Shown here: positions 15,772 through 40,295 of the stretch, piece after piece
Layout of the letters: each line of letters starts with the position of its first letter
Position numbering within the stretch: the first letter of the stretch is position 1
Source: Naegleria gruberi
Taxonomy: Eukaryota
Direction: 5' to 3' (one strand)
Length of the DNA: 64,000 nt
Assembly (NCBI GenBank): GCA_000004985.1
Contig: GG738919.1
Made by a program: the position numbers and the translations under genes
Notes under the pieces: model-generated
What the model was told of the DNA's origin: nothing
What the model saw: the letters and a program-made list of their open reading frames with translations, nothing else
The model's database searches: none

Positions 15772-15854
15772 AAGGTAATCAATTTTCCTTGAATATGGTG
15801 AGTGAATTTAAATTCTAGGGTCAATATTCTTGGCTTTGTCATAATGTATGTTGA

Positions 15855-15985: not shown

Positions 15986-16157
15986 TAATTCTTTCTTTTC
16001 ATAAACTAACTTTAATTGTCCTTATAATATCATTATTGCTTTTTTGATTCAAAAAGATTTTAAAAATTAGTTCTAGGAGAGAACTCTTTGTTCCTGCATA
16101 CACTCGAACTCTAAAAATTACTACTTTTTCATTGCAATAATAAATTCAAAAAGAAAA

Positions 16158-23285: not shown

Positions 23286-25667
23286 TTATTGTAATATTAA
23301 TATAAAATAAATAACAATCATGCCAATTGTCATTGCCATATTTGTAAATCCATTGTAAATACTCAATGCTGATCCAAGAACCATTGAATTGACTCCTCTC
23401 TTTGAGCTAAAAGTTGAAGGTTGAGGTAAAACTCTATCTCCACATCTCTCACCTCCAAATCCACTCTTACATGAACAAGTATTGATGGAAGTGCAATTTC
23501 CATTTCCGGAACATGCTAATGGATCATTGTAAAGAGTTCCAAAACAGAGTGGAAGACAAAAAGTGTTGGTTTCATCGGTGAGAGAGTTGGCTGGACAAGC
23601 TTGTTTGGAAATCTTGAGAATACGATTGGAGAAACCACCTGAAACTAACAAATCTCCTTTTGGAGTAAATGAAAGACCTGTAGCACTCATAAAAATGGTT
23701 GTTGCATCAGAATATGATTCAGGAATGCTACTGTTTTTGCTTCCAAAGATTGTTACCAGAATTCCCTTTGAAGTAATCTTTCGAATATTGTTTCCATCTG
23801 AGAAGAAAACTTCTCCCTCTTTTGAAACAGCAACCGATGAAGGATATCCAATTCCAGTACTTGTAGCAATTCCAAAATCTTCACCAACAGTGCTGTCTCC
23901 ATTACCTGCCACTGTTGTAATATTACCATTCTTAGAGAGCTTTCTAATGAGATAATTATCATAATCAGCAATATACAAATCACCATTTGGAGCCAGTGCG
24001 ATATCTTGTGGACCACTGAACTTTGTCTTTGTTGCCAATCCATCACCATTGAACCCACCATCTTCCAACACTCCAGCAATGATACTCATCACTCCATTTG
24101 TAGAAATCTTTCGAATAACATGACTCGATCTATCAGCCACCAACAACTCACCACTCTCTGTCAAAATTACAGCTTGAGGAGAACCCAAACCACTCACAAC
24201 TGTATCAACAGTTCCATTCGATGCAAAAATCCTTCTAATTGCTCCATTAAACAAATCTGCAATGAAAATATCACCATTTTTGGAACATGCAATTCTGGTT
24301 GGTTCGTTGAACTTGGCCAACTTGGCATCTGATCCATCACCACTATAGCCATGGTCACCTGTGCCGGCGTATTGTGAGATAATACCATTTGGGGAGATTT
24401 TTCTGATTTTGTGATAGGCACTTTCGGCTATGAAAGTTTCGTCTAGAATGTTTGTGCAGGCATGTTTAGGATAGTAGACAAAGGCTTGTTGGCTGTTGTA
24501 GCCATCTCCTGTAAACTTTTTAACATCTCCAGTAAAGTCTGGTTTGAGGGTGAGAGTGATACTATTTCCTTTAGTGTCAACCTTTCGAATATACAAGTTT
24601 CCATTATCTGCAATAAACATTTCGCCCAAGCTTGATAGAGCAACACTGGTTGGAGCAGAAAGAAGGGCTGAAGTTGCAGGAACGTTTTCATCTTCTCTGC
24701 TATAACCACTACTATTTGGGACTCCAGCAACTGTTGAAATAATTCCACTTTTCGAAACCTTTCGAATAAGGGAATTCAAAGTATCAGCAATATAGACCTC
24801 ACCAGTGGATTCATAAAAGAAAACACCATAAGGTGTGTTCAGTAGAGCTTGCTTTGCTTGAGAACCATCTCCTCCATAACCATTTATGGTTCCATTTCCA
24901 GCAAAAGTGGAAATTATTCCATTTGCATCAATCTTTCGAATAACGTGATTCTTTGAATCGGCAATATACAATTCACCAGTTGAACTAATTGACAAACCAA
25001 TTGGACTATTCAATTGTGCTGTTTTGGCATTTCCGCCATCACCAGAAAATCCTTCTTCACCATTTCCAGCTATTGTTGAAATATTACCATTTAGAGAAAT
25101 CTTTCTAATCACATGATTTGATTTATCAGCAATATAAACTTCACCATTCGATGCTACTGCAACACCAGTTGGAGTATTCAATCTTGCACGAGTTGCCAAA
25201 CCATTGTCTCCACTGTAACCCAAGTCACCCTTCATTCCTGCCACAATTGTTTGAATTCCCTTCGAATTTAATCTAACAATGACACCTCCTACTGGATCAC
25301 TAATGAGCAAATCATTGGAATTTGGATAGAGAGCAACACCTCCTGGTTGAAACTCCAAATCCTTCGTTAAAGTTGTAATTCCACTCACAGTATCCAACAT
25401 TCTAATCTTGGTCATGCTATCCTCAGTCATGTAGAGAATATTACTCGAGGCAGAGATGGCAAACATGTTGGGACGAGAGAATACGAAAGAGGATGGTATA
25501 TTACTTCCCTCCTTCTCACCAGCAACCACAACTGAAACATTGTACTTGATAGCTGTCAGTTGTGCATTCACTACTGCACAAAGGAGAAACAAGAGAATCG
25601 CAATATGACAGCAGACTTTGTGAATCTGATTGGTTTGCATGTTTTTTTTTGAAATGTGTCTTTCCAT
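23286..25667 (-). CDS. NHL-repeat / EGF-like / single-TM surface protein, 793 aa.
   Basis: Many NHL repeats (YIADxxNHVIRKI). C-terminal EGF-like CSGNGNCTSINTCSCKSGFGGERC, then TM MAMTIGMIVIYFILIL. Signal peptide after the second Met. Confidence 0.8.
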   Translation of the reverse strand: MERHISKKNMQTNQIHKVCCHIAILLFLLCAVVNAQLTAIKYNVSVVVAGEKEGSNIPSSFVFSRPNMFAISASSNILYMTEDSMTKIRMLDTVSGITTLTKDLEFQPGGVALYPNSNDLLISDPVGGVIVRLNSKGIQTIVAGMKGDLGYSGDNGLATRARLNTPTGVAVASNGEVYIADKSNHVIRKISLNGNISTIAGNGEEGFSGDGGNAKTAQLNSPIGLSISSTGELYIADSKNHVIRKIDANGIISTFAGNGTINGYGGDGSQAKQALLNTPYGVFFYESTGEVYIADTLNSLIRKVSKSGIISTVAGVPNSSGYSREDENVPATSALLSAPTSVALSSLGEMFIADNGNLYIRKVDTKGNSITLTLKPDFTGDVKKFTGDGYNSQQAFVYYPKHACTNILDETFIAESAYHKIRKISPNGIISQYAGTGDHGYSGDGSDAKLAKFNEPTRIACSKNGDIFIADLFNGAIRRIFASNGTVDTVVSGLGSPQAVILTESGELLVADRSSHVIRKISTNGVMSIIAGVLEDGGFNGDGLATKTKFSGPQDIALAPNGDLYIADYDNYLIRKLSKNGNITTVAGNGDSTVGEDFGIATSTGIGYPSSVAVSKEGEVFFSDGNNIRKITSKGILVTIFGSKNSSIPESYSDATTIFMSATGLSFTPKGDLLVSGGFSNRILKISKQACPANSLTDETNTFCLPLCFGTLYNDPLACSGNGNCTSINTCSCKSGFGGERCGDRVLPQPSTFSSKRGVNSMVLGSALSIYNGFTNMAMTIGMIVIYFILILQ

Positions 25668-25925: not shown

Positions 25926-28391
25926 ATGAACAAATCTTGTGTAACAGTTGTGCTTTTTTACTGCATCTGTTTATTGGGTTTCTTATTGCATGTTAAAGCA
26001 GAGCAATACGAAACCTCTGAAAATCCAAATTTTTCTATTCGTTACAATCTCACACTTGTTACTGGAAATGGTGATAAGAGAGGAACAGGCGTTCCTTACA
26101 GTATTGTAATGACAAGACCTGTGGGATTGGCATATTCTCAAAAGAGGAACACTATTTATCTTTCTGAAGGTAATTTGATGAGAAAACTTGACTTGACAAC
26201 TGGCATGACTTATATATTTGCAAATGTTGAAAATCCTGGTTTGCTTGCTTTCTCTCCTAATGAAACAACTCTCTACGTATGCTTCCCACTCTCAAATAAG
26301 GTTCAAAGAATGGACTTTCTTCCAAATGGAACCGAAATCTTTTCAGATTTTGCTGGAAATGGAAATTCTGGAAATACAGGTGAAGGTGGCTTGGCTATTA
26401 ATGCTCAATTGAATCAACCAAGTGGTGTAGCAGTTGATTCAAATGGTGATGTTTACATTTCAGATTCTGGAAATGGTTTAATCAGAAAGGTTTCCATCTC
26501 TTCAGGAATAATTACAAAATTTGCTGGAACAAGTCAAGGATTTGCAGGAGATGGTGGTTTGGCAAAGAATGCCAAGTTGAGTAATCCAAGAGGATTGAAT
26601 TTTGGTCCAAATGGTGATTTGTACATTGCAGATTCTGATAATAATGTGGTGAGAAGAATTAATTCGAGTGGAATTATTACAACCATTGCAGGTGATACCA
26701 CATCAGGTTATTCTGGAGATGGAGGTGATGCTAAATTGGCAAAGATGAAAAATCCAATCAATGTTATTGTCTCAAAAACTAATGAAATATTCATTAGTGA
26801 TGCAGATAATAATGTTATTAGAAAGGTTTCCAATGGAAATATTTCAACAATTGCTGGTAATGAATTGGTGGGTTCTGGATTCAGTGGAGATGGAGGAGAT
26901 TCTAAAAACGCATTGATTTCCATGGTACAAGGATTTGTATGGATCAATGATGAGTTGGTATTTGGAGATTTGGTAAATTCTATTAGAAAGATCAGTAAGA
27001 GTGGAATCATTTCATCCCTCACACAAAAACTTCCATTCACTGGTGATGGTGTTAATGTAGATTTGAGTTTTATACTCTATCCTAAAGGTATTTGTGTGAA
27101 TGAGAATACAGGTGATATTATTTTTTCAGAAGCTTATGGAGATACTATTCGAAAGATTGCCAAGAATAGAATAATTACAAAAATAGCAGGTATTGGAAGT
27201 GCCAATAATTCTGCTGGAGTTGAAAATGGGCAAGCGCTCTCTGTTTCTCTTCATATGCCAAGTCTTATTCAATGTCAACCAAATGGTGATGTTTATGTTG
27301 CTGATTATTTCTCCAATCTCATTCGTTTAGTTTCGACCAATGGCAGTATAACGAATGTTGCTGGAACTGGTGTTGGGGGATACAGTGGAGATGGTGGTAA
27401 TGCTAAATTAGCCAAATTGAATGCACCTAATTCAGTCAAAGTTTCTTCCAGTGATGAAATTGTTATTGCAGACACTTCCAATAATGTTATTCGAAAGGTT
27501 TTCAAAAATGGAACAATTATTACAATTGCTGGTACTATTGGAAGTCAGGGATACAGTGGAGACAATGGTCTAGCAATTAGTTCAGTTCTTTCCAGCCCAT
27601 CAGATGTTGCTATTGCACCAAATGGTGAGGTATTCATTGCCGATTGGGGAAACCATGTTATTCGAAAGATTGATACTAAAGGTATCATTACAACAATTGT
27701 AGGCAATGGCACAGAAGGTAATGGTGGTGAGGGATTTAATAGACCTCTAACTGCTCAATTGAAATTTCCAAAATCAATCTCACTTTCGAAAGATGGAGAA
27801 TTGTTCATTTCAGATTACAATGGAATTAAGAAATTAACAGTGAAAGGAACAATTGCTCATATTGCTGGAGTTGGAGATGATAGATATGTTCCTCTAACTC
27901 AAAATTACCTCTCAGATGCCACAACTGCCTCAGTTTTCACAGATCAAATTCACATCATGTCAAATGGTGATTTGATTATTGGCATTGGAAATGGTTATGA
28001 CAATGGCAAGATCTACAAGCTATCCAAACTCACTTGCACCCAACCAAACTATTCTCCAGACAGCACCAACACTTTCTGTCTCCCTTCATGTTTTGGTTTG
28101 ATTGCTGACAGCAACAATATCTGCTCAGGAAATGGTTCATGCATTTCGACCAATACCTGCCAATGCAAGCCAGGATATACTGGAGCCCAATGTCAATCTC
28201 GTATTGAACCAACCATTTCCAAACAACCAGCCTACCCTCTCACAAGTAGCTCCTCAATTCTTCCTCAAAAATCGAAAGGAGTGATTGGAGGAAATTCCAA
28301 TCCACGTGGAGTTGCTTCGAGTGTTTGCGTTGGAATGAAAATTTCTGGAATTTTGTTGATTTTATGGGTCGTTCTGATGTTTTGCTTTTAA
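25926..28391 (+). CDS. NHL-repeat / EGF-like / single-TM surface protein, 821 aa. Paralog of 23286..25667, divergently transcribed.
   Basis: Signal peptide MNKSCVTVVLFYCICLLGFLLHVKA. Repeated DxxGxxYIxDxxNNxIRKV NHL motifs. EGF-like CSGNGSCISTNTCQCKPGYTGAQC. C-terminal TM GILLILWVVLMFCF. Confidence 0.8.
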   Translation: MNKSCVTVVLFYCICLLGFLLHVKAEQYETSENPNFSIRYNLTLVTGNGDKRGTGVPYSIVMTRPVGLAYSQKRNTIYLSEGNLMRKLDLTTGMTYIFANVENPGLLAFSPNETTLYVCFPLSNKVQRMDFLPNGTEIFSDFAGNGNSGNTGEGGLAINAQLNQPSGVAVDSNGDVYISDSGNGLIRKVSISSGIITKFAGTSQGFAGDGGLAKNAKLSNPRGLNFGPNGDLYIADSDNNVVRRINSSGIITTIAGDTTSGYSGDGGDAKLAKMKNPINVIVSKTNEIFISDADNNVIRKVSNGNISTIAGNELVGSGFSGDGGDSKNALISMVQGFVWINDELVFGDLVNSIRKISKSGIISSLTQKLPFTGDGVNVDLSFILYPKGICVNENTGDIIFSEAYGDTIRKIAKNRIITKIAGIGSANNSAGVENGQALSVSLHMPSLIQCQPNGDVYVADYFSNLIRLVSTNGSITNVAGTGVGGYSGDGGNAKLAKLNAPNSVKVSSSDEIVIADTSNNVIRKVFKNGTIITIAGTIGSQGYSGDNGLAISSVLSSPSDVAIAPNGEVFIADWGNHVIRKIDTKGIITTIVGNGTEGNGGEGFNRPLTAQLKFPKSISLSKDGELFISDYNGIKKLTVKGTIAHIAGVGDDRYVPLTQNYLSDATTASVFTDQIHIMSNGDLIIGIGNGYDNGKIYKLSKLTCTQPNYSPDSTNTFCLPSCFGLIADSNNICSGNGSCISTNTCQCKPGYTGAQCQSRIEPTISKQPAYPLTSSSSILPQKSKGVIGGNSNPRGVASSVCVGMKISGILLILWVVLMFCF

Positions 28392-29094
28392 TTGTGTTGA
28401 ATTTGCATGATAATAAAGAATTGTTGTAAGAATCTTGTTGTGGTTTACAATAGGTAGGAGTGACAGAGCTGTAATGATGAGGAGTTTAATTTGTCTTTAT
28501 AAGGCAATGTGGGACATATACAAACTTACAATATTTTGGTTATGAAATTGACACAATCAAGGAAATTTGTGTTCCAATTCATTACCTTTCTGTCTTTTCA
28601 CCTCAATAGAAAAATATCAAAATCAAATCTATTCGAAAGCTTATATTTTGTATAAACTTAACAACTTTCGTGTTGAGGTTCTTTCAGTGACTATGTTAAA
28701 AATCCGCAAAATATCCATTTCATCTGAGCTCCAACATATCTCTGTAATAAATTCTTCATTTTTATAGTTTTCACTTGGAAGAGGAATTGAAATTGGAATA
28801 ATTGCGCTTTCGAATGGTCTTTCGCAATAATTCATGTAAAATATTGGGTATTGAGCCTCTTAAACAAACTAAACACTGCAAGATATGATTCTACAGATCC
28901 AAACAATGTTTAAACATCTTTCGGCTAGAGTTTCGGGCAATGTTTTTATGTTCAATGTTGGAAACTCTCGAGTTCGACCTTCAGTTCGAAAGGTGAAAAA
29001 ACAACGCTTGTCAGTCCACTTCTAAATACCAACTTTAAAAAAAAGAAACTTCTTAACTACGCACAACCTATCTAGTTTCGTTTAGTGTTTAGTT

Positions 29095-30393
29095 ATGGTT
29101 GCCATCATTAATACGCCAACAATAGACGAAACGAAGAATAATTTCAATAATTCTTCATCAGTAGCAGCTGCCTCAGCTATTACAACATATTTCAACAATA
29201 ATAATATTGGAAACGTTTCGAATAACATGTTAGTGCCCAACAAAACAACAAAACATTGAATTAGTAACGGCTTCACAAGATGATAGTATTAATAACAATT
29301 CTTTACAAACAATAACACCGCTCTATCAACAACATGGAAATTCTTCGATAGGTGTGGAAAGTAACGTTTCGTCTACTTTAGTTCAACCAATTCAACAAGA
29401 AAGCGAGAGTATCCAACAAATGATTTCGAATTTTAAATTGCGCCCATTAAGAGTTTACCAACAAGAACAAGAAAGAATGGAAAATCGTCAAGTTTCGTCA
29501 CATGCTCCTCAAAATTCCTCATCGTCGAGCTCTAGATTACAATTAGTTTCGCCTTCCCCTAATAATAGCCTTCTAATGTTCCTTCACTTACAAATTCTCC
29601 GCAAGTTAATAGTATTTCAACTGTTATCATTCCATCTAATAATCATCAAACTCTAGTTTCGAATAATTCCTCAACAAATCAAGCTAATGAAAATCCAATT
29701 CAAGTAGTTTATAGTGAAACAAATCAGCAACAATTTGATGATTCACAAGGATTGTTGGGTTCTTTTGATATTTCCTCAGATTCTACTAGTGGAAAGAATG
29801 GTCAATCGAATATCAAGTCATTTGTCAAAGCTGCCTTATTAATTTTCCACATTATTTGTCAAATTGTAATGAGTGGCATGATTGGTATTTCATTCATTCT
29901 ATACGATTGGAAAACCATGATCATTTTCACTCCCAAAATTGTCATTGGATTTCTAATAATTTTGGCAGTTTACAAAAAGAAGAATGGTTTCTTACATTTT
30001 CTATTAGGAAGCATCCTTTTAGATTTGATTTACACCACCATTTTGGTTGGTCTGAGGTTTTATGTAACAGCCAGACCTGGACAAGTTACTTTTCTGACAC
30101 AGGAATCGAATAATGCATTTACTGAACTTTCTAAGAATCCAATAGAGTTAGCACCAAATCATGTGCTTGTCCACACTCCAGAATGGACACACTCAAGTGT
30201 TGAATGGATTAAGGCAGCTACCCCAATTCCAGAATCACCAAATGAGCACACTGATATGCAAGGAACAAGTGCTGCAACTGAAGCTCAAAGGAAAAAGCTT
30301 CCTGGCTTGTGGTTTCAATTCGGAATTCAAATTATGGGCGGATTTATTGTTCTCCTGACAATAATATGGACACTCATAGTTGGTCAACAGTAA
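29095..30393 (+). pseudogene. N/S/Q-rich low-complexity protein with a C-terminal 4-TM domain. The reading frame is interrupted by two compensating 1-nt frameshifts (near 29235-29256 and 29560-29575). A pseudogene, or sequence errors in homopolymer runs.
   Basis: Three protein-like segments: frame 1 from ATG 29095 to TGA 29257, frame 2 from 29234 to 29656, frame 1 from 29569 to 30393. The rare GTT-TCG (Val-Ser) codon pair recurs in frame in all three segments. The ORF 29752..30393 has no ATG before residue 40. Confidence 0.45.
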
Positions 30394-30486
30394 ATAACCA
30401 TTCAATATTATTAAACATTTATTACAAAAACTTATTATTATTGAATACATTCAAATATGTAAAAAATTATCTCCACAACTTAAAGA

Positions 30487-31610
30487 ATGGCCGTTCGTTT
30501 GCTGTTGAGTGATTTTACTGATCGTGATCATCATTATGATTTCACTCTGGAAAATATGCTCACCCGAAAACTCATGTTCCGATTTGATCTCAAGTTAATT
30601 CCGAAGAGTTTCATCTGTCCATTTTCTACAAAGCGATCATCATCAATTAATGATTTTAATCTCAATGTAATTATTTAATTATATTTAACTATAATTTAAA
30701 AATTTAATATTTAATATAAATATTTATAATAATATATTAATTAAATGGTATTCAACTTAAGAATACGGAATTAAAATTTAAAAAACCAGTCGATGTAAAA
30801 TTCTCTCCTCAATTTCAATGTCTCATCATTTCCGATGAGAATGGACTCTATTTTCTCAATCATAAGAATGCAAGTTTGATGAAATTTGTGGCGGGAAAAG
30901 ATTTTGGAAGTTTGTGTGTTGATTATTGTGCTTCTGATTGTGGAAAATCAAAGGATTATTTGATTGTTACGACACAGTTCATTACTACTCAGATTAGAAA
31001 GTATGATTTGGAGAAGATATTGTTTCATTTCAATGATCAATTGTGGAGGAGTGGTTTCGAATGGAGCAATTCTCAATTGTGTAGAATGAGTGGAATTGCC
31101 TTTTCGAGGAGGAATGCAAAGAGTGGATCTTTGTTTGTTTCAGATTGGACTTATTGTTACATGTTAAATGCAGGAAATGGAAAAGTAGTGACAAGATTTC
31201 ATATATTCGATAGCTCTCTACAATACGAAATGAGAAGACCCATTCATGGCATTGAGTTTTACAAAGGTAATTTATGGCTTGTGGAGACTACTAATGATAT
31301 TTGCCATATTCATCAATTTAAATGGGAAAATAGCAAGTGGAATAATTTCAAAATTCATCAATTTAAATGCAAAGGTGCCACCTGTCGTGATATCAAGGTC
31401 ATTAATGAAAAATACTTGGCAATCAGTGATTCTAAAGGTAGAATTCTCCTCTTTGATTTGGTTGATTTCAAATTCCTTAGAAAGAGTCAAATTACTAGTC
31501 AAGACAAAATTACAATGGATGTAGGTCTGCAAGGAATTTGTTTCAATCCACTTTTAAATGAAATGTATGCATGTGACTTTGAAACTGATAAAGTTCACAT
31601 TATTTTGTGA
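30487..31610 (+). CDS. NHL-like beta-propeller repeat protein, join(30487..30666,30762..31610) with a 95-nt AT-rich intron.
   Basis: The ORF 30876..31610 is open upstream to 30741 without an ATG and remains protein-like (KPVDVKFSPQFQCLIISDENGLYFLN). ORF 30487..30678 ends ..NLN|GTAATT. Acceptor CTTAAG|AAT restores the frame. Confidence 0.55.
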
Positions 31611-31756
31611 TCATTATTCAACAAGTACATTCTCATTGTAAAGCTGTTGTCATTTGACTTTTGATGGACAATTATTATCTCTTTAAGAGTTGTTTAATAC
31701 TACTACTTTATTTTTAGTGATTCGCAGTCAATTCGGTCGCTCAAGTTGTTAAAAAA

Positions 31757-32626
31757 ATGTTAAAACGACACCAAGCAAAGATAATCATTGCCATCACAGC
31801 TTTTGGAATTTTCAGCATTCTTTTTTGCTGTTTCCTGTTCATATCACATTCGAATGGATATTCATTCTTTCGGAAATTCTATCCTATCGATCGCACACGA
31901 ATGATTGTCGTTTCCAAATATACGGAAGATGTTTCATGGCTCGATACCTACCTTCCACACATTCCACATGCAGTCTACGATCGATTAAATCCACAGGCGC
32001 CATACATTGTCCATTCGAATAGAGGACACGAAGGATCCACCTATCTGAAATACATCATTGACCATTATGAAACTCTACCTGAAAATATTGTCTTTGTCCA
32101 TGGCCATAGGATTGCATGGCACTGTCGAGATATGGTCACAATTTTGGAAAATTTACATTGGGGAAAGTTTGATTATGTTTCGTTGAATCCAGCTTATTTT
32201 CAGGTTCTCAATTCGACCAGTAGTGATTATTTGGCTGTGTCCAAGTATTGGCCACGTCTTTTTGAGGACACACTCGGTCAAATGCCTCCTCTCATTAAGG
32301 ATTGGTGTTGTGCCTCATTTCATGTGAAAGGAAAACGAATTAGGAGACATCCAAAGAGTTTCTATCTGAGATTATATGAATGGTTACAATCTGGAGAGGA
32401 GGAAAATTATTGGTCGAGTAGAATTATGGAACATGTTTGGGTTTTGATGTTTGCCTCGAAAACACCTGAACCTGATGTGAATTTGTGTGACATTGCCAAT
32501 TGTAGAAATATTGTGGGACATAGGGCATTTTCATTCAAGACAGTGAATGGTGAATTGAGGGAATTAAATCAATTGGAACAGAAATTGTTGTATTTACAGA
32601 GGAATCCACATATTAAAGATATTTAG
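31757..32626 (+). CDS. Type II membrane protein (N-terminal signal anchor), possible glycosyltransferase-like / DUF-type domain.
   Basis: ATG at 31757. Single N-terminal TM IIIAITAFGIFSILFCCFLFI followed by a globular domain with conserved W/H/C residues. Confidence 0.55.
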   Translation: MLKRHQAKIIIAITAFGIFSILFCCFLFISHSNGYSFFRKFYPIDRTRMIVVSKYTEDVSWLDTYLPHIPHAVYDRLNPQAPYIVHSNRGHEGSTYLKYIIDHYETLPENIVFVHGHRIAWHCRDMVTILENLHWGKFDYVSLNPAYFQVLNSTSSDYLAVSKYWPRLFEDTLGQMPPLIKDWCCASFHVKGKRIRRHPKSFYLRLYEWLQSGEEENYWSSRIMEHVWVLMFASKTPEPDVNLCDIANCRNIVGHRAFSFKTVNGELRELNQLEQKLLYLQRNPHIKDI

Positions 32627-32705
32627 ATCAATAACTTTTCAAGTTAGTGGAACCAAACTGAAGAACCGATGTGCAAGAGTTTACGCAGAGAAGCCCCTTC
32701 TTAGT

Positions 32706-32836
32706 TTTATGAAAGGAATATTTTCATGATGAATAAGATTCCCGTGTAGTCCAATGGCTAGGATACCTGGCTTTCACCCAGGAGGTCCGGGTTCAATTCC
32801 CGGCATGGGAGAATCATTTTACCTTTTCTAAAAATA
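32706..32836 (+). repeat. tRNA-Glu repeat unit with conserved flanks, copy 3.
   Basis: Same flank conservation as copies 1 and 2. Confidence 0.7.
32740..32811 (+). tRNA. tRNA-Glu (TTC), copy 3.
   Basis: Identical 72-nt sequence with the same conserved flanks (GGAATATTTTCATGATGAATAAGAT / GAGAATCATTTTACCTTTTCTAA). Confidence 0.9.
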
Positions 32837-33213
32837 ACAATTAAAGAAATAAGTATTTTCCTTCCACCCAATTCTTTATCTGGAGTTGAAGAATACAATT
32901 ATTTAAGGCTTCATTCTTAAATGTTTCATGCATTTATTAATTTGCAATTTTACACACTCTATCAAGAAATAATTAGAATAAAGCCATGGCTTGGTACAGT
33001 TTCTCAAATGCTTGCTACATAATGTTTAGATATTGCAGGCTCAGTCGCTGCACCACCTTAATAGTGAAGCAACAGTAATCCAATTTTTATGAGAATGAAA
33101 GGTTCTTAATAAAATTATTAGAAGTAAAATCGAAAACCCAAAAACGGAAGGAAGATCATACCCTTAACTTTATTGTTGTGTGAGCCTCGTGCCTTAATAT
33201 AAGTAGATGTAAC

Positions 33214-33287
33214 GCCGTCATAGCTCAGTTGGATAGAGCACAGGACTTCTAATCCTGGGGTCGTGGGTTCGAGCCCCATTGTCGGTA
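33214..33287 (+). tRNA. tRNA-Arg (anticodon TCT).
   Basis: GCCGTCATAGCTCAGTTGGATAGAGCACAGGACTTCTAATCCTGGGGTCGTGGGTTCGAGCCCCATTGTCGGTA. Anticodon loop CTTCTAA, T-arm GTGGGTTCGAGCCCCAT. One T-T mismatch and one G-T in the acceptor stem. A T-run terminator follows. Confidence 0.7.
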
Positions 33288-33486
33288 TCATATTTTTTCT
33301 TAAACACACATGGAGACATGATGTTTAAGAAAATATTGATTGACAATTTTAGCATTTATTAATACCATAAATTACATAAAAGGAAAGTCAATTAAATATA
33401 TTGGAACAAATGAATCGAACAATCTTTTGATTTGTGACTGAACGTCCCGACTATTCATCCTTTCAAAAGCTTACTCATCAAAAAAA

Positions 33487-35329
33487 ATGCACACCACAGC
33501 TGTTTTCGTTCTCTTTCTAATCCTCTCGGTAATTGTTTCGTTTAACACGCAAGGAGTTTCTTCACTCGTTACTCCAAAGCAATCCTATTTCTTGTGGCCA
33601 AACACTACCACAGGTGATGCAACAGTCTTTTTCAAGGTAAGATGATTTTTTCATTCGCTCACAAATATTATTGGAAATATTTAGGATGGCAGTTCGAAAC
33701 CAATTGTCACTTTATGGGTAGGTTACGCTGCCTATGATGATATTGCAGGAGTAAAAACAAGTATTGCCAACATTATCTCTTCAGGTTCCATTCCATACAT
33801 GTAAGTATTTAATTCAATACACTTTACAAGTTTATTAACTATTTAACACAGCCAATCTTACAGTTTTGGTGATAATGGACTTCGTGGGAATTACAATCTC
33901 TCCGTTGAATTTGATAAACAAGTTGCCATTGCCCTTGGATCAAATTTTGCCTTTGTCAACTTGGAAACTGAATGGGATGTCGAAGAAGTTTTGACACTTT
34001 TCCAAACAGCTGAAGGAACTCAATGTTTGAAAGATAGAGTCAACATGTTCAGAACCTATGCTCCTAATACTATCGTTGTGAGCTCTCCTGGATTATGGAA
34101 GTCAACCAGTAGTTATACTTTCTTTTCTTCAATTGATGCTACGTTGAATGCTCGTGCCATTTTGACACATATTGTCAATATTGGAAACACAACATGTTCT
34201 TTGAAATATGATGGTAGTTATTGGACAAGTGGAGCAAATTCATTGAGTGATGCTCTTGTTTTATTGGACGATACCATTACTTCTGATTTGCAAAAGATGA
34301 ATGATGCTTGGGGAACAGTTTCACCAATGGAATGGATTATTGCTGACTCTGGAGTGACTTCATGTGGTTGGGGAGAAAGTGGACAAGCAACAATTTTGAA
34401 TATTCTTGTGAAGGTAAGTTTACAATTTTTTTCACATTGTAATCAAAATTGATTTTCAAAAAAATTTCAATGAACAGAATCTTGATTGTTTATATAAAGG
34501 AGGTTTCAGAGGATTCATCCTACGTAACTCTGGTCCATCCCTCTCTGAACGTGCCATGGGTATCAATAACGAAGGCATGTTCACTTACACAACTTCACCT
34601 TCCTCAGTTACTGTCTTGAACACTGGATTGACAAGAGCAAGGCAATTATTTGTCAATAATCAAACACCTAATTGTGTCCAAGCTGATACTGTCTATACTG
34701 TTACCATTAATTCAAATTCTAATGCTTATTGGGCTCAGATTAGTGTCCTTCCATATTCAACCATTCAAAATGTTACCTTTACATGTTCTGGAATTAGTTC
34801 ATTGTTGGCTACCTCCGCATGGTCTAGTTCTGTCTTTGTAAAGAGTTTGTCTCCAGGGTGTCCATTGGATTCTTCCATAACTGTTACTATAAACGGAAAT
34901 GCCAAAGTGTCAATGAATTTTACAGTGGGAACAAGCGCCACTTCTGCATCATCCTCATCAAATGGAGGAAGTAGTTCTGGAAATAACACAAATACCAATA
35001 ATGGAACTGTCATTAATCCAAGCAATGGAAATAACACCAACACCAATAATGGAACTAGCTCAAATAATGGAACAGTCATTACTCCTACCACTTCCACTGT
35101 AAAACCTACCACCTCAACAGTCGTACCAAAGACTTCATCAACCAATAGTGGAAGTTCCTCATCCAACTCAACCACAAATCCAACAAGCTCAGGAAATTCC
35201 AATAGAAATGGAACTGTAATAAGCTCTGCCAATTCATTCAAGAGTTCCACTAGTGCTCTATTCACTCTCTGTCTACTCTCTTTCCTATTCTTGTTAGACT
35301 TTTCAAAGTTGATATGTGTTAACAATTAA
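33487..35329 (+). CDS. Secreted, probably GPI-anchored Ser/Thr/Asn-rich surface glycoprotein, join(33487..33636,33685..33800,33852..34413,34478..35329). Three introns of 48, 51 and 64 nt.
   Basis: Signal peptide MHTTAVFVLFLILSVIVSF. Donors GTAAGA/GTAAGT/GTAAGT and acceptors TTTAG/CACAG/AACAG keep ORFs 33961..34452 and 34556..35329 in frame. S/T/N-rich stalk (NGTVINPSNGNNTNTNNGTSS...) and a hydrophobic C-terminus typical of a GPI signal. Confidence 0.6.
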
Positions 35330-35539
35330 CAACTTTACAAAGTTAGTAAAGTTAATTGACTGAATTTTTATCAACCTCTTTTTTATTCATGAAAATGGAA
35401 ATTTCTGAGCAATTTCGAAAACAAAACAGAAATGACCTTTTATCTATAAACTTGTTGAATGCAAATTAATGAATTTATGAATCAAATAATTAAATAATTT
35501 CAACAATTTGAATAAAAATTTAAAAATTCAAAAAAAAAA

Positions 35540-36556
35540 ATGTCCAATAAACTCTTATCCAATCTTCCACCACTTCCATCACTCCGAGAAATTCTCAAAA
35601 TGTATGGCCTTCAAGCCAGTAAACAACTCTCACAAAACTTTTTATTAAATCTTCATGTAACGGATAAAATTGTGCGAGTATGTGGTGATATTTCTAATAA
35701 GACTGTGATTGAAATTGGACCTGGACCAGGTTGTTTAACCCGATCGATTCTTCAGGCTAATCCTAAACGATTAATTGTTGTTGAGAAGGATGAACGATTT
35801 ATGCCTGCTCTTCAAAATCTTCAACAAAGTGTGGATGATGGTAAAATGCATATTGTTCAAGGAGATATATTAAAAGTGGATCAATTTAAATTAGTGGATC
35901 ACTTTTTGGAGAAGGATGAAAAGGTTTTAAAGAATTCGGATGAATTGGCCAATGTAGTATTTATTGGTAATTTACCTTTCGGAATTGCAACACCATTATT
36001 GATTAATTGGTTGAAGGATTGTGCTAATGGAACTGGTGCTTTTGCATTTGGAAAGAAAATTCCGATGGTTTTAATGTTTCAAAAGGAGGTTGGATTGAGA
36101 ATGAGTGCAAAAAATTCTACAAAGGAATTTGGTAGACTTTCAGTTTCTTCACAGAGTGTGTGTGATGTTGAACACATGTTTGTAGTGAATGCCAAGAGTT
36201 TCGTACCTGCTCCTAAAGTGGATGCAAGTGTAATGAGATTGATACCAAAGACAACACCACTCATTGATAATTCACTCGTTCAATTTGAGGATTTGGAACA
36301 ATTTTGTAGAATTATTTTCAATGGTAAACGTAAACAATTGAATACTAATTTGAGTTCATACTTTTCTCCCAAGCAATGTGCTTATATTGCTGCAGGTGCA
36401 GTTGAGGGTGGTTCAAAGAATATGGATAGTGTCAATGCTGTTCTTTCACAACGTTCTCAAGACTTGACAGTTGAGGAAATTACTTCAATGGCCAGAAGAT
36501 TTGTCAGACTGCGTGAAAGTGATCCAGCTATTAAGGATTTATTAAAGAGAGCTTAA
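35540..36556 (+). CDS. TFB1M: Mitochondrial rRNA adenine dimethyltransferase / mitochondrial transcription factor B1 (KsgA/Dim1 family).
   Basis: LPPLPSLREILKMYGLQASKQLSQNFLLNLHVTDKIVRVCGDISNKTVIEIGPGPGCLTRSIL aligns closely with human TFB1M (LPPLPTIREIIKL..AKQLSQNFLLDLRLTDKIV, GPGPGGITRSIL). Confidence 0.85.
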   Translation: MSNKLLSNLPPLPSLREILKMYGLQASKQLSQNFLLNLHVTDKIVRVCGDISNKTVIEIGPGPGCLTRSILQANPKRLIVVEKDERFMPALQNLQQSVDDGKMHIVQGDILKVDQFKLVDHFLEKDEKVLKNSDELANVVFIGNLPFGIATPLLINWLKDCANGTGAFAFGKKIPMVLMFQKEVGLRMSAKNSTKEFGRLSVSSQSVCDVEHMFVVNAKSFVPAPKVDASVMRLIPKTTPLIDNSLVQFEDLEQFCRIIFNGKRKQLNTNLSSYFSPKQCAYIAAGAVEGGSKNMDSVNAVLSQRSQDLTVEEITSMARRFVRLRESDPAIKDLLKRA

Positions 36557-36701
36557 ATTGTTTCCTTCTAAATATTGTTTCAATGAGTGCAAAAAGTTAT
36601 GAAAAAGGAAAGATTCATGATAATCTCTAGCCTTAAAATTATTGAAATATTTCACAAATTAAAAATAAATATTTATAATAGTATTATTAATATAAATTAA
36701 T

Positions 36702-37709
36702 TTATTCCTCGTCTAATCCAACTTCTGGAGTATCTTCCATGCTCAAATATTGTCTATCCAATTGATATAACCTCACATAACCGTCTTCTCCTCCAGAGGC
36801 ATATGATTTACCATCTGGTGAAAATGCCAAAAAGTGGATTGGACCAAAGTGACCTCTAACAGTTCCTATTTCTTCTTCAAAAACTTGATGGAAAAAGTGA
36901 GTATCGAAATATGTTTGCTTCTTAACAGTAGTTGTAACATCTTGAGCAGCTGTACCACCACCCAAAATTACGTGGCGTTTGATTGGTGAAATGGCAGCAG
37001 TGTTGACTGGATCAGAGTGTTTATAGACCTTAAGGAGTTCCAGTGTTTGACTTTCAAAGAGTTTAGCAGTTTTATCGGTAGAAGCAGACATGAAAAGCAT
37101 TCTATCCTTTGAGAATGACAATCTAACAACAGTATGAGTGTGTTCTCTAGTTGATCCTAATTGCTTACCACTCTCGGCATCGAATGTTCTAATAGTACCA
37201 TCATCAAATCCACAAATAATGGTCTTGTTCAAAGGTCCCCAAGCAGCAGATGTAATTTTATCCTTTTGTTCAATTTTTCTTGATGGAATTAATTTTCCAC
37301 TTCTAGATTCCGTTCCTTCTTCTGGGAGTTTAAAGATTTGAATGGATGGAGTTTGTTTGAATGAAGAGTCGGTAACGGCAAGGAATTGTTTATCACCTTC
37401 ACTGAATTGAACAACCTTTGTTGGTGTAGCAAAATCTACAGATAATAATTGAGCACCAGTTTGAACATCCCACAAGGTAACCTTCATATCAGCGGAAGCA
37501 CACAACAATCTAGTACAAGCAGCATTAACATCAATACAATTGACAGCACCGCTATGTTTAAAGGTACCAAGCAATTGTCCATTGTGAGTATACCACACTG
37601 AAACACTTTGGTCTTTTGATGATGCGAACAACAAATCGCCTTCTCTGCTATATTTTAACCAAGAAATTGGTTTCAAGTGAACGTGGAGATTCAAAGGTTT
37701 GATGGTCAT
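36702..37709 (-). CDS. EIF3I: Eukaryotic translation initiation factor 3 subunit I (WD40).
   Basis: YSREGDLLFASSKDQSVSVWY, LWDVQTG, TSAAWGPL, DKTAKLFESQTLELLK, VRGHFGPIHFLAFSPDGKSYASGGEDGYVRLY. Collinear with human EIF3I. Confidence 0.9.
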   Translation of the reverse strand: MTIKPLNLHVHLKPISWLKYSREGDLLFASSKDQSVSVWYTHNGQLLGTFKHSGAVNCIDVNAACTRLLCASADMKVTLWDVQTGAQLLSVDFATPTKVVQFSEGDKQFLAVTDSSFKQTPSIQIFKLPEEGTESRSGKLIPSRKIEQKDKITSAAWGPLNKTIICGFDDGTIRTFDAESGKQLGSTREHTHTVVRLSFSKDRMLFMSASTDKTAKLFESQTLELLKVYKHSDPVNTAAISPIKRHVILGGGTAAQDVTTTVKKQTYFDTHFFHQVFEEEIGTVRGHFGPIHFLAFSPDGKSYASGGEDGYVRLYQLDRQYLSMEDTPEVGLDEE

Positions 37710-38258
37710 TTTTTATCTTCTTCAAATTTTTAATAATAAATTAATAATTTTGAATAAATTTTATTGAATCATTTCTTCTAAAGCCTTTCTAGCTTGCTTT
37801 CTGGGAATATTCATCAACTCTGAAAAGAACAAATTGTAGGGTTGGATGTGATAAGAATAGAGTGTAAGCTTGTTTCTATATTTTGCTTTAAATCAATAAT
37901 GAAATTGAATTATTATTTGTTTTTGGATTGTATTGATGAATAAAGCGATCAAAGAAGGCAAACCTACCAGTAGCAAGACGTCATTTAGATTATCGGTACT
38001 ACCTTCCGTAATTCATCACAGCAGCTGGATTGTCATCACGAATAAACTATTATAAGAACATCTTCATAAGCTGGCTGTTGAAACCCATGATGATGTCATT
38101 GCGATTTTACCCTTAAATTTTGTTAGTTGCAAATTTTTCAATTTTTAAATTATTTAAAAAAAACAACAACACATCATCCACAAACTTTACTTGTTGGTAG
38201 TATTATCGGAGTTGTGATTTATTAAACCTGAACAGAAAAAAACTTGTACAAATAGAAG

Positions 38259-40295
38259 ATGATTGATAATTTTACAATTCTTACAAAAGGAGGATTGGTA
38301 CTTTATAGTTTTACTGGATTTGCATTGAATGGAAATCCTATCAATGAATTAATTCGATCAGTATTGTTGGAAGATCGTCTCTCCGATAAGACATTTAACT
38401 ATCAAAATGAATATTTGCTGACATGGCTTCAAGAAAATGAATTTGATCTTATTTTCGTAGTTGTTCATCAAATTGCAATTCAAATTACATTTATTGATAC
38501 TCTCTTGGAAAATATTAAAAACAAATTCACTTCAACATTTAAGAAAGTACTTCAAGATGCTAAAGGAAAAGGAAAGGGTATGTCAGTCCTCAGTGAACAC
38601 GAATTTTCCTTTGATAAGGAATTTACAAAGATTTTGAACAATCTTGAAGAAAGATCGCGAGAAGAAAAACAATTGCAAAAGGAAGGTTTGCTCATCAGAC
38701 AATATAGAAAGAAGGACGACGAAAAGAAGGATGAATCGACAAATAATGAAGAGGAAAAGAAAAAGACAACCTTTATTGAAAAGCAAATTCAAAAAGGTGA
38801 AGAAATGCTCCAAACAAGTTCACCAAAACAAATGTCCAAATATGAAAAGAAGAAGGATAAGAAAGCAGCCACACCAACCACCACCCAAATCGAAGAAAGT
38901 GATTCGGAAGAGGAGGATGATGAAGCTCAAACACCAAAATCAGCCACAGAAATGAATGAAAATGTTAAGGCCAATATTGAACAAATGAAGAAACGTTTCG
39001 GAAAATTCAAGGGAGTCAACATGGCAAAGAAGGGTTCCAAGAAGAATGTTACAGAACCATCCACTCCTGAAGATGAAAATTCCATCCCAACAGTTCAAAT
39101 GAAGGAAAAGCCAAAGAAGGTTGCCACCAACTGGGATCAATTTGATACCACCTACACTAAGAAGAAGGCCGAAAATATTGACTTTTCAAAGAAGACAAAA
39201 ACTGGTGATGAAAATGGCTCACCAGAAGATGATCTTCAACGTCACAAGGAAAAGTACATGCCAAATCCAAATCAAATGACTGATATTGATGCCGATATTT
39301 ATGATTCAAGCAGTGAAGAAGAAGAGGAAATTGATGAAAAACCAAAGAAGGGTAACATTTTCTCTACCTTCTTCTCCAATTTGACTAATGGTAGAACTCT
39401 TACAAAGGAAGATCTTGATCCTGTCATGGAAGATTTCAAACAATCACTCATGAAGAAGAACGTTGCTCAAGAAATTGCAGTTAGCATTTGTGATTCAGTC
39501 TCTGAAAATTTGGTTGGTAAAAAGTTGGGTACCTTCTCCTCCATTAAGAGTGAAGTCACTAAGGCTATGGAAGAAGCCCTCACAAGAATCTTGACTCCAA
39601 GCAGAACTATTAACATTCTCAAGGAAGCCTCAACTGTCAGAGAACAAGGCAGACCATATGTTATTGTCATGTGTGGTGTCAATGGTGTTGGTAAGAGTAC
39701 CACCTTGTCAAAGATTTGCTATTGGTTACTTCAAAAGGAATTCTCTTGTTTGATTGCTGCTTGTGATACTTTTAGATCTGGTGCTGTTGAACAACTTCAA
39801 GTCCATGCTAGATGTTTGAATGTACCAGTATTCCAAAAGGGTTATGGTAAGAATGCTGCCTCTCTTGCTAAGGAAGCTATCAACCATGCAAAGAAGAATG
39901 GTTTTGATATTGTACTTGTAGATACAGCTGGTAGAATGCAAGATAACGAACCATTGATGAAATCTCTCATTGAATTGATTCAAGTCAATACTCCAGATCT
40001 TGTCTTGTTCGTTGGTGAAGCTCTCGTTGGTAATGACGGTATTGACCAATTGCAAAAGTTCAACTCTTCACTCAAGGTTTTGGCTAGCTCTGAAAATGCT
40101 GCCACCAAGCAAACTAAGGATTTAATTGATGGTATCGTCTTGACCAAGTTTGATACTATTGATGAGAAGGTGGGAGCTGCAGTTTCAATGGTTCACAAAA
40201 CTGGTCACCCAATTGTATTTGTTGGTGTTGGTCAAACTTATACCGATTTGAGAACACTCAAGGTTGAATCAGTAGTGAAATCCCTCCTTAAATAA
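38259..40295 (+). CDS. SRPRA: Signal recognition particle receptor subunit alpha (SRX domain, charged linker, NG GTPase domain).
   Basis: VIVMCGVNGVGKSTTLSKI, DTFRSGAVEQL, DTAGRMQDN, LTKFDTIDEKVGAAVSMVHKTGHPIVFVGVGQ. Confidence 0.9.
   Translation: MIDNFTILTKGGLVLYSFTGFALNGNPINELIRSVLLEDRLSDKTFNYQNEYLLTWLQENEFDLIFVVVHQIAIQITFIDTLLENIKNKFTSTFKKVLQDAKGKGKGMSVLSEHEFSFDKEFTKILNNLEERSREEKQLQKEGLLIRQYRKKDDEKKDESTNNEEEKKKTTFIEKQIQKGEEMLQTSSPKQMSKYEKKKDKKAATPTTTQIEESDSEEEDDEAQTPKSATEMNENVKANIEQMKKRFGKFKGVNMAKKGSKKNVTEPSTPEDENSIPTVQMKEKPKKVATNWDQFDTTYTKKKAENIDFSKKTKTGDENGSPEDDLQRHKEKYMPNPNQMTDIDADIYDSSSEEEEEIDEKPKKGNIFSTFFSNLTNGRTLTKEDLDPVMEDFKQSLMKKNVAQEIAVSICDSVSENLVGKKLGTFSSIKSEVTKAMEEALTRILTPSRTINILKEASTVREQGRPYVIVMCGVNGVGKSTTLSKICYWLLQKEFSCLIAACDTFRSGAVEQLQVHARCLNVPVFQKGYGKNAASLAKEAINHAKKNGFDIVLVDTAGRMQDNEPLMKSLIELIQVNTPDLVLFVGEALVGNDGIDQLQKFNSSLKVLASSENAATKQTKDLIDGIVLTKFDTIDEKVGAAVSMVHKTGHPIVFVGVGQTYTDLRTLKVESVVKSLLK

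What the first reader, a model, noticed from the sequence alone, without database searches (positions are those of the whole stretch)
29095..30393. N/S-rich 4-TM gene read in three successive frames; the rare GTT-TCG codon pair tracks the local frame
Three contiguous protein-like segments lie in frames 1, 2 and 1. The switch points are near 29235-29256 (a CAAAACAACAAAAC run) and near 29560-29575. In each segment the hexamer GTTTCG, heavily over-represented here, is read as Val-Ser in that segment's own open frame. This argues that all three segments are, or recently were, coding. The central 330-nt segment is out of frame through +1 and -1 events. Options are a young pseudogene, homopolymer sequencing errors in a real gene, or (least likely) recoding.
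Basis: seen in the sequence. Interest (0 to 1): 0.55.

Follow-up and report, generated by a model that had tools for sequence, protein, structure and literature searches.

The report
Frame-broken Naegleria membrane-protein gene
A single-exon gene for a Naegleria-specific four-helix membrane protein is split into three reading frames in the N. gruberi NEG-M reference by two small extra stretches of DNA (4 and 8 bases). This is most likely a freshly inactivated allele or, less likely, an assembly fault, and it is not a recoding signal.

Summary
The window is Naegleria gruberi NEG-M. Three stop-free stretches lie in frames 0, 1 and 0: 29095-29259, 29234-29656 and 29569-30393.

A 98%-identical genomic contig from an environmental Naegleria (metagenome ERZ929261) carries the same gene as one uninterrupted 429-codon ORF. 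Against it, NEG-M has +4 nt inside a perfect (CAACAAAA)2 tandem at 29238-29255 and +8 nt (TAGCCTTC) at 29566-29573. These are exactly the two frame switches.

The N. fowleri ortholog is also a single ORF with the same build: a low-complexity N-terminal half followed by 4 TM helices.

The deposited model (EFC37326, 316 aa) starts at an internal ATG and skips 29546-29568 as a 23-nt "intron". That is a frame patch, not biology.

In 11.4 kb of neighbouring sequence, all 7 clear in-ORF indels between the two genomes are multiples of 3. Intergenic indels are mostly not.

Best reading: real recent frameshifts, giving a young pseudogene allele (~0.6). Consensus error comes next (~0.3). Introns or recoding are each a few percent or less.

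All five in-gene GTTTCG copies are in phase as Val-Ser. Two more copies lie upstream of the ATG. The cluster sits in the most CpG-rich stretch of the window and is absent from the N. fowleri ortholog.

Ordinary overall; the practical value is a corrected gene model.

The parts
29095..29244 (+). Segment 1 (frame 0). It holds the start codon and the first ~50 codons of the N/S/Q-rich N-terminal region. The frame closes at TGA 29257-29259.
   Evidence: It is collinear and in frame with codons 1-49 of the intact relative P0009.
29238..29255 (+). First frame break. This is a perfect tandem (CAACAAAA)x2.2. NEG-M is 4 nt longer here than the intact ORF (the alignment places the extra bases at 29246-29249), which shifts reading from frame 0 to frame 1.
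   Evidence: Tandem Repeats Finder and alignment A1.
29246..29568 (+). Segment 2 (frame 1), about 108 codons of the same N/S/Q-rich region. It is out of frame with both flanks in NEG-M and in frame in the relative.
29566..29573 (+). Second frame break. Eight extra bases (TAGCCTTC) are present relative to the intact ORF, returning reading to frame 0. They also create the third of three frame-0 stops (TAA TAA TAG).
   Evidence: Alignment A1.
29569..30393 (+). Segment 3 (frame 0). It holds the end of the low-complexity region, the 4-TM core and the stop codon.
   Evidence: It is identical to residues 43-316 of the deposited protein EFC37326.
29833..30069 (+). TM helices 1-3, including the conserved FxPKIxIG and LHFLLGxxLLDLIY motifs.
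   Evidence: Hydropathy scan. Conserved with the N. fowleri ortholog (36% identity over 86 aa, E = 6e-18; alignment).
30325..30381 (+). TM helix 4. It follows a cysteine-free loop of about 85 residues.
29546..29568 (+). The 23-nt stretch (GTTTCGCCTTCCCCTAATAATAG) that the deposited gene model skips as an intron. It is judged a frame-patching artefact.
   Evidence: Translating 29420-29545 plus 29569-30390 reproduces EFC37326 exactly. The relative lacks the 3' AG and reads straight through. The mean N. gruberi intron is 203 bp (PMC8296547).
29420..29545 (+). Exon 1 of the deposited model. It begins at an internal ATG in frame 1 and drops about 108 upstream codons of the real ORF.
28930..29661 (+). 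Cluster of seven + strand GTTTCG hexamers at 28930, 29075, 29215, 29366, 29492, 29546 and 29656, plus one on the - strand at 29127. The five inside the gene are in phase as Val-Ser.
   Evidence: All are conserved in the 98% relative. None occurs in the N. fowleri ortholog.
28801..29600 (.). The most CpG-rich stretch of the window. CpG observed/expected is 1.23-1.25, against a window mean of 0.47. It covers the 5' flank and the N-terminal half of the gene.

Best explanation
The locus is one ancestral single-exon gene of about 430 codons. It encodes a Naegleria-specific membrane protein with a disordered N/S/Q-rich N-terminal half of about 215-235 residues, then three closely spaced TM helices, an ~85-residue loop and a fourth TM helix. 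Its biochemical function is unknown.

In the NEG-M reference sequence two small length changes break the ORF. A +4 nt change inside a perfect (CAACAAAA)2 tandem at 29238-29255 moves reading from frame 0 to frame 1. A +8 nt change (TAGCCTTC, 29566-29573) moves it back. The 322 nt between them is therefore out of frame, and standard translation stops at TGA 29257 after 54 residues.

I infer that these are genuine, recent slippage-type mutations. The assembled NEG-M haplotype would then carry a young pseudogene allele. The deposited model EFC37326 (internal ATG plus a 23-nt 'intron') would be an automated patch around the second break.

Shown: the single ancestral ORF, the exact positions and sizes of the two breaks, and the artificial nature of the model.

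Inferred: that the breaks exist in the organism's DNA rather than only in the consensus, and that no product containing the TM core is made from this allele.
For: **Identity of the window.** Four neighbouring ORFs match N. gruberi NEG-M proteins exactly.

**Intact relative.** P0009 (429 aa) sits in the same 90% cluster as EFC37326. It is encoded as one ORF on two independent assemblies of run ERR1078381 (L001, L002). These are genomic DNA, because L001 continues into the next gene's intron.

**Alignment.** There are 17 substitutions in 1299 nt. NEG-M has +4 and +8 nt exactly at the two frame switches. A separate in-frame 3-nt difference lies at about 30131.

**First break.** It lies in a 100% tandem of period 8. 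That is a slippage product, not a base-calling slip.

**Baseline between the same two genomes.** The comparison covers 11.4 kb of neighbouring sequence. The 7 indels inside the ORFs 25926-28391, 38259-40295 and 40507-42444 are all multiples of 3. Sixteen intergenic indels of 1-31 nt are mostly not. Real 4- and 8-nt indels are therefore normal wherever frame constraint is absent, and the reference is frame-clean in the neighbours.

**No sign of a low-quality read.** There is no excess of substitutions around the breaks (segment 2: 4/324; segment 3: 9/825).

**Constraint.** pN/pS is about 0.3-0.5, so constraint held for most of the divergence time and the breaks are recent.

**N. fowleri ortholog.** FDP41_005534 / P0010 is a single ORF of 387-409 aa with the same architecture. 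It lies next to the SRP receptor alpha gene, which is 8 kb away in this window.

**Downstream expression.** The first frame-0 ATG downstream of the breaks is at 29869, inside TM1.
Against: - No NEG-M reads could be examined, so a consensus error is not excluded.
- Each difference can be decomposed as an in-frame polymorphism plus a single base in a short run. The first would be 3 nt plus one A. The second would be AGC CCT TCT, a repeat of the upstream Ser-Pro-Ser, minus one C.
- The +4 and +8 sum to 12, restoring the frame. That has about a 1-in-2 chance for two random non-3n indels, but it is also what a pair of opposite errors would give.
- All three segments are still stop-free in their own frames. 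At 1.3% divergence this carries little information.
- NEG-M may be heterozygous or polyploid, so an intact allele may coexist with the assembled one.
Confidence: 0.6

Rival explanations
1. Assembly or consensus artefact. The NEG-M genome really has one intact ORF. The reference consensus is off by +1 and -1 at two low-complexity spots, possibly where haplotypes differ by in-frame indels of 3 and 9 nt.
For: - Both breaks sit in repetitive, low-complexity sequence: an A-rich AAC run and a CCTTC/TAAT context.
- Each break can be written as 3n plus or minus 1.
- The two offsets cancel exactly.
- The gene otherwise looks constrained (pN/pS about 0.3-0.5).
- All segments remain open.
Against: - The differences from the intact ORF are 4 and 8 nt, not single bases.
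- One break is a perfect 8-nt tandem duplication.
- This reading needs two independent errors within 330 nt, each coinciding with a real in-frame polymorphism.
- Substitutions are not elevated nearby.
- No unambiguous frame-breaking indel is seen in about 7.4 kb of neighbouring ORF sequence compared with the same relative. The one in-ORF non-3n indel, at 25642, lies in the first 9 codons of an ORF that the relative's gene call starts later.
Confidence: 0.3
2. The frame changes are bridged by splicing. Either two short introns are removed (for example 29229-29286, 58 nt, and 29524-29612, 89 nt, each containing one of the indels). Or one cryptic 384-nt intron (29229 GTTAGT ... TAATAG 29612) removes the whole out-of-frame block.
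For: - GT..AG pairs of the right length class exist.
- Non-3n indels are what introns tolerate.
- GTTAGT at 29229 resembles a canonical donor, and its T at 29230 is specific to NEG-M.
- A 384-nt removal gives an intact ORF from ATG 29095.
Against: - The relative reads through every candidate in frame and without stops, with the same N/S/Q-rich composition.
- Its equivalent of the 29229 donor is GC.
- The candidates have 36-38% GC, like the coding sequence. The one well-supported neighbouring intron (30667-30761) has 7% GC.
- The N. fowleri ortholog is intronless.
- GTTTCG at 29546 is in phase inside candidate B.
- GT..AG pairs are expected by chance in this composition: 456 two-intron solutions were found.
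Confidence: 0.04
3. Programmed ribosomal frameshifting. A +1 shift occurs in the CAAAACAACAAAAC run and a -1 shift occurs just after 29569, yielding the full-length protein from the genomic sequence.
For: All three frames are open and in-phase Val-Ser codon pairs continue across them. The A-rich run could in principle be slippery.
Against: - A 98%-identical relative and the N. fowleri ortholog encode the protein without any shift.
- The shifts coincide with 4- and 8-nt indels.
- No X XXY YYZ heptamer exists in the interval where the second shift must occur.
- The first interval does not end in a known +1 context: it reads AAA CAT TGA.
- Two opposite programmed shifts in one gene would be without precedent.
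Confidence: 0.02
4. The deposited model is right. Translation starts at ATG 29420 and a 23-nt intron (29546-29568) is spliced out, giving the 316-aa protein EFC37326.
For: GT and AG bound the 23 nt, and the model gives an open frame.
Against: - 23 nt is far below the species' mean intron length of 203 bp. A 30-bp minimum was used for read mapping in N. fowleri (PMC8296547).
- The relative lacks the AG and codes through the stretch.
- The model discards 108 upstream codons that are conserved and open in the relative.
- GC is 43%.
Confidence: 0.01

Closest known systems
Young (unitary or allele-specific) pseudogene with frameshifting indels
   Same: An ORF that is intact in close relatives is interrupted by small non-3n indels of slippage type. 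The rest of the sequence is still nearly undegraded and each piece is open in its own frame.
   Different: It is not shown that the breaks are in the organism rather than in the consensus. It is also not shown that no intact allele remains in NEG-M. Loss of expression was not tested.
Gene models patched with implausibly short 'introns' by automated predictors to step over frameshifts
   Same: EFC37326 is reproduced exactly by skipping 23 nt bounded by GT..AG at the second break and by starting at an internal ATG downstream of the first break.
   Different: That this is a known habit of the pipeline used rests on my general knowledge. Only this one model was examined.
Programmed frameshift genes (antizyme +1; Euplotes +1 at AAA-TAA/TAG; viral -1 at X XXY YYZ)
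   Same: Successive open frames must be joined to make the full protein.
   Different: There is no slippery motif, and the shift is not conserved because relatives have one frame. The shifts coincide with indels.
N. fowleri FDP41_005534 (XP_044560253) and its 409-aa variant P0010: the orthologous Naegleria-specific 4-TM protein family
   Same: The architecture matches: a low-complexity N-terminal half, TM1-3, a cysteine-free loop and TM4. The motifs FxPKIxIG and LHFLLGxxLLDLIY are shared. The TM core is 36% identical. Both lie close to the SRP receptor alpha gene.
   Different: The N-terminal halves are barely alignable (E = 0.03-0.08). The ortholog has no GTTTCG hexamers. Neither has a Pfam family or a known function.
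Tetraspanin-type 4-TM topology (short loop TM1-2, tight TM2-3, large loop TM3-4)
   Same: The spacing of the four helices is similar.
   Different: There is no Pfam match. The large loop has no cysteines, so the CCG motif and disulfides that define tetraspanins are absent. The long N-terminal low-complexity region is also atypical.

Membership tests
Frameshift-disrupted gene (pseudogene allele) | The ORF is interrupted relative to an intact ortholog by indels that are not multiples of 3. | tested here: met
   NEG-M has +4 nt and +8 nt against the intact 429-codon ORF of the relative. The N. fowleri ortholog is intact.
Frameshift-disrupted gene (pseudogene allele) | The disruption is present in the organism's DNA, not only in the assembly. 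| not testable with these tools
   No NEG-M reads or second NEG-M assembly were reachable. Scans of metagenome and genome collections found nothing further.
Frameshift-disrupted gene (pseudogene allele) | Relaxed selective constraint (dN/dS near 1) or loss of expression. | tested here: inconclusive
   pN/pS is about 0.3-0.5 from only 19 differences, and the lineages cannot be separated. Expression was not testable.
Programmed ribosomal frameshifting | A slippery site in the zero frame at the shift point: X XXY YYZ for -1, or a shift-prone codon plus a slow or stop codon for +1. | tested here: not met
   No heptamer lies in 29540-29656. The first interval ends AAA CAT TGA, which is not a known +1 context.
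Programmed ribosomal frameshifting | The frameshift requirement is conserved in relatives. | tested here: not met
   The relative and the N. fowleri ortholog each use a single frame.
Spliceosomal intron (for the 23-nt gap in the model and the other GT..AG candidates) | GT..AG boundaries. | tested here: met
   Boundaries fit for 29546-29568, 29229-29286, 29524-29612 and 29229-29612. Such pairs are abundant by chance: 456 two-intron solutions were found.
Spliceosomal intron (for the 23-nt gap in the model and the other GT..AG candidates) | Length and composition typical of the species' introns. | tested here: not met
   The model's gap is 23 nt against a mean of 203 bp (PMC8296547). The candidates have 36-43% GC against 7% for the neighbouring intron, which is only one comparison intron.
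Spliceosomal intron (for the 23-nt gap in the model and the other GT..AG candidates) | Splice sites are conserved and the stretch is not read as coding in close relatives. | tested here: not met
   The relative lacks the AG at 29567-29568, has GC instead of GT at 29229-29230, and reads through all candidates in frame.
Tetraspanin | A Pfam tetraspanin profile match and a Cys-rich large loop with the CCG motif. | tested here: not met
   There are no Pfam hits even at E <= 5. The TM3-TM4 loop has no cysteine.
Naegleria FDP41_005534-like 4-TM protein (unnamed family) | A four-TM core with the FxPKIxIG and LHFLLGxxLLDLIY motifs after a long low-complexity N-terminus. | tested here: met
   Exhaustive phmmer search: P0010 at E = 1.9e-7. 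BLASTP: E = 6e-18. Alignment and hydropathy agree.

The most novel reading that the evidence does not exclude
The reference sequence is correct, and NEG-M still makes the full-length membrane protein from it. It would do so either by two opposite ribosomal frameshifts or by using a newly created GTTAGT donor (T at 29230 is specific to NEG-M) to splice out the 384-nt out-of-frame block. A related open point is the phase-locked GTTTCG cluster in the window's strongest CpG-rich stretch. It could be a lineage-specific cis element rather than a relic of internal duplication.
Probability: 0.04. Interest if true: 0.6.

Novelty: new member of a known kind. Interest (0 to 1): 0.15.

Why it matters
The main value is practical. 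The deposited protein EFC37326 / XP_002670070 / D2W0P4 is a mis-modelled, N-terminally truncated product with a fictitious 23-nt intron. The true gene is a ~430-codon single exon.

If the breaks are real, NEG-M has lost, on at least one haplotype, a membrane protein conserved across the genus Naegleria. NEG-M is an axenic laboratory strain, so this would be a small example of gene decay in a culture-adapted reference strain. It would also be a caution for pangenome presence/absence calls.

The finding does not bear on any open question about recoding.

Tried and rejected
- **Contig look-up for window proteins.** Neither the window's own proteins nor the deposited model are on record, so no annotated gene table was available.
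- **Collection scans for more alleles.** The JGI metagenome collection gave nothing with a protein query or with a DNA pattern spanning the second break. The prokaryotic genome collection also gave nothing.
- **Protein searches.** The word-indexed search returned only the gene's own cluster. The exhaustive search added only the N. fowleri-type ortholog and one spurious repeat protein, P0011.
- **Pfam.** No family was found, even at E <= 5.
- **Structure prediction.** AlphaFold on the 4-sequence alignment gave pLDDT 42 and pTM 0.20. This is too poor for a fold search, so none was run.
- **Literature.** Nothing was found on PRJEB11402, ERR1078381 or ERZ929261, so the nature of the sample holding the intact relative is unknown. 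The 2010 genome paper is not held.
- **Methylation and CpG.** The N. gruberi methylation paper reports sparse methylation with no CpG preference. It therefore gives no ready explanation for the CpG pattern.
- **Extended motif around GTTTCG.** Only 10-13-nt partial repeats were found. No longer shared unit appeared, and the spacing is not periodic.
- **N-terminal similarity to N. fowleri.** This would have been an independent check on frame 1, but it is too weak to use (E = 0.03-0.08).

Full report
**What the window is.** Four long ORFs near the finding are exact matches to Naegleria gruberi NEG-M proteins (EFC37321, EFC37325, EFC37331, EFC37332) on a 216,243-nt scaffold. Their domains are eukaryotic: P4-ATPase, teneurin-type NHL/EGF, SRP receptor alpha and UBA. 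The bacterial-code ORF list is therefore only a mechanical aid here.

**Checking the observation.**
- Translation of 28880-30460 in three frames shows frame 0 open from ATG 29095 to TGA 29257-29259.
- Frame 1 is open from 29234 to TAG 29654-29656.
- Frame 0 is open again from 29569, after TAA TAA TAG at 29560-29568, to the stop at 30391-30393.
- The 140-codon middle stretch is not open by chance. Only 18 of 200,000 shuffles are stop-free. With the off-frame stop rate of real genes in this window, P is about 1e-5.
- GTTTCG occurs 38 times in the window against 13.8 expected. Seven + strand copies fall in 28930-29661, against 0.22 expected there (P about 4e-9).
- The five copies inside the gene are all in phase as GTT-TCG in the locally open frame. 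They account for all five Val-Ser dipeptides of the protein. Only 6 of 61 Val-Ser pairs in 27 other long ORFs use this pair (Fisher P = 5e-5).

**What is annotated.** A search with the frame-joined conceptual protein (432 aa) returned a single cluster. Its representative is EFC37326 / NAEGRDRAFT_81946, 316 aa. Translating 29420-29545 and 29569-30390 and joining them reproduces that protein exactly. The deposited model thus starts at an internal frame-1 ATG. It skips the 23 nt GTTTCGCCTTCCCCTAATAATAG (29546-29568) as an intron.

**The decisive comparison.**
- The same 90% cluster contains a second member, P0009 (429 aa).
- It is encoded as one uninterrupted ORF on two independent assemblies of run ERR1078381, which is labelled as a metagenome. 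These are ENA ERZ929261 k127_83542 (locus L001) and a Logan contig (locus L002).
- The DNA is genomic, because L001 runs into the intron of the next gene.
- Aligned to the window, it differs by 17 substitutions over the 1299-nt gene and by three length differences.
- The first: NEG-M has 4 extra bases in CCCAACAAAACAACAAAACATT, against CCCAACAACAATAACATT in the relative.
- The second: NEG-M has 8 extra bases (TAGCCTTC) in CCTAATAATAGCCTTCTAATG, against CCTAATAATAATG.
- The third: NEG-M has 3 fewer bases at about 30131, which is in frame.

The first two sit exactly in the intervals where the frame must change. They amount to +1 and -1 modulo 3. All three NEG-M segments are therefore pieces of one ancestral ORF.

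**A more distant relative.** The exhaustive search with the TM domain found P0010 (409 aa). Its cluster contains N. fowleri FDP41_005534. It shares the architecture and the TM-core motifs at 36% identity (E = 6e-18). It is a single ORF on its contig and lies beside the SRP receptor alpha gene, which is 8 kb downstream in this window. Pfam has no family for any of these proteins. AlphaFold on the shallow alignment gave pLDDT 42, so no fold comparison was attempted. The protein can only be described as a Naegleria-specific 4-TM membrane protein with a long disordered N/S/Q-rich N-terminal half (51% N+S+Q+T).

**Real mutation or assembly fault?** I could not reach NEG-M reads. The indirect evidence leans towards real.
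- The first break is a perfect tandem (CAACAAAA)x2.2. The second is a unique 8-mer. Neither is a one-base homopolymer slip.
- I aligned two further contigs from the same environmental Naegleria (L004, L005) to 11.4 kb of the window. The seven indels inside the ORFs 25926-28391, 38259-40295 and 40507-42444 are all 3 nt.
- Sixteen intergenic indels range from 1 to 31 nt and are mostly not multiples of 3. Real 4- and 8-nt indels are thus the normal currency between these genomes wherever the frame is not protected.
- The reference shows no unambiguous frame error in the neighbouring ORFs. The one other in-ORF non-3n indel, at 25642, lies in the first 9 codons of an ORF that the relative's gene call starts later.
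- Substitutions are not elevated around the breaks.
- pN/pS is about 0.3-0.5. The gene was constrained for most of the divergence, so the breaks are recent if real.

Against this, each difference can be written as an in-frame polymorphism plus or minus one base. The two offsets cancel, and both lie in low-complexity sequence. I put a real young pseudogene allele at about 0.6 and a consensus artefact at about 0.3.

**Other mechanisms.**
- *Introns.* GT..AG pairs that would mend the frames exist: 58 nt at 29229-29286, 89 nt at 29524-29612, 384 nt at 29229-29612, and the model's 23 nt. Such pairs are abundant by chance, with 456 two-intron solutions found.
- The relative reads through every one of them in frame with the same amino-acid composition. 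It has GC instead of GT at 29229-29230 and lacks the AG at 29567-29568.
- These candidates have 36-43% GC, like the exons. The neighbouring well-supported intron (30667-30761) has 7% GC. The mean N. gruberi intron is 203 bp (PMC8296547).
- *Recoding.* There is no X XXY YYZ heptamer where the -1 shift would have to occur. The first interval offers no known +1 context. The need for shifting is absent from both relatives.

**The GTTTCG cluster.** The phase-locking is real and supports coding in all three frames. The hexamer is not only a codon pair, however.
- Two more + strand copies lie upstream of the ATG, at 28930 and 29075.
- The whole stretch 28801-29600 has the highest CpG observed/expected ratio of the window (1.23-1.25, against a mean of 0.47 and sd of 0.22). 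The 3' half of the gene has 0.22.
- TCG makes up 11 of 54 Ser codons here, against 82 of 1144 elsewhere (P = 0.002).
- Other CpG peaks in the window also lie at gene 5' ends.
- The N. fowleri ortholog has no GTTTCG at all.
- Only short 10-13-nt internal repeats surround the copies.

I read the cluster as a lineage-specific by-product. It would come from small internal duplications in a fast-evolving low-complexity region that happens to lie in a CpG-retaining 5' zone. Its cause is not established.

**Verdict.** The feature is a frame-broken, mis-annotated, otherwise ordinary gene. Interest is low. The useful outputs are the corrected gene structure (single exon, about 430 codons, 29095-30393 minus the two insertions) and a specific read-level test.

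Noticed in passing
window-wide; peaks at 2801-3400, 7801-8400, 15001-15800, 16001-16600, 28801-29600, 30401-31000, 31601-32200, 38201-38800, 54401-55000, 63401-64000: CpG observed/expected averages 0.47 over the window but rises to 0.8-1.25 in 600-nt stretches. These mostly coincide with the 5' ends of long ORFs, like CpG-island-type gene starts. The published N. gruberi methylome reports sparse methylation with no CpG preference (PMC12344493), so the cause is unclear.
   Followed up: partly
window 30487-31610 (+): The small ORF 30487-30678 looks like exon 1 of the next gene. It is conserved in the relative, with an in-frame 6-nt indel. Removing a 95-nt, 7% GC stretch (30667 GTAATT ... TTAAG 30761) joins it to the ORF ending at 31610 and gives a 342-aa product.
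   Followed up: partly
window 23286-25667 (-) and 25926-28391 (+): Two divergently oriented paralogs encode teneurin-type NHL-repeat proteins, and the second also has an EGF domain and a C-terminal TM. A 1-nt indel against the environmental relative lies at 25642, within the first 9 codons of the minus-strand ORF. The true start is therefore probably a downstream ATG (the relative's gene call is 784 aa, against 793 aa here).
   Followed up: no
window 28885-29025 (+): A 46-codon upstream ORF in frame 0 also reads its GTTTCG (28930) as Val-Ser. It contains AATGTTGGAAAC (NVGN), a near-copy of AATATTGGAAAC (NIGN) at 29203. It may be a remnant of duplicated N-terminal coding sequence or an upstream ORF.
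   Followed up: no
L002:1-19 and L002:1682-1702: The Logan contig carrying the intact relative has Illumina adapter sequence at both ends (GACGTGTGCTCTTCCGATC ... AGATCGGAAGAGCGTCGTGTA). Its ends are therefore not genomic.
   Followed up: no
L003:6001-9356 versus window 29095-40295: In the N. fowleri-type contig the ortholog lies directly beside the SRP receptor alpha gene, in convergent orientation. In N. gruberi the two genes are on the same strand, 8 kb apart, with several genes between them. Local synteny is thus kept but rearranged.
   Followed up: partly
window 44465-45749 (-): Two long minus-strand ORFs (44967-45749 and 44465-44986) overlap by 20 nt in different frames. This is another junction that could be a short intron or a frame break. 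It was not examined.
   Followed up: no
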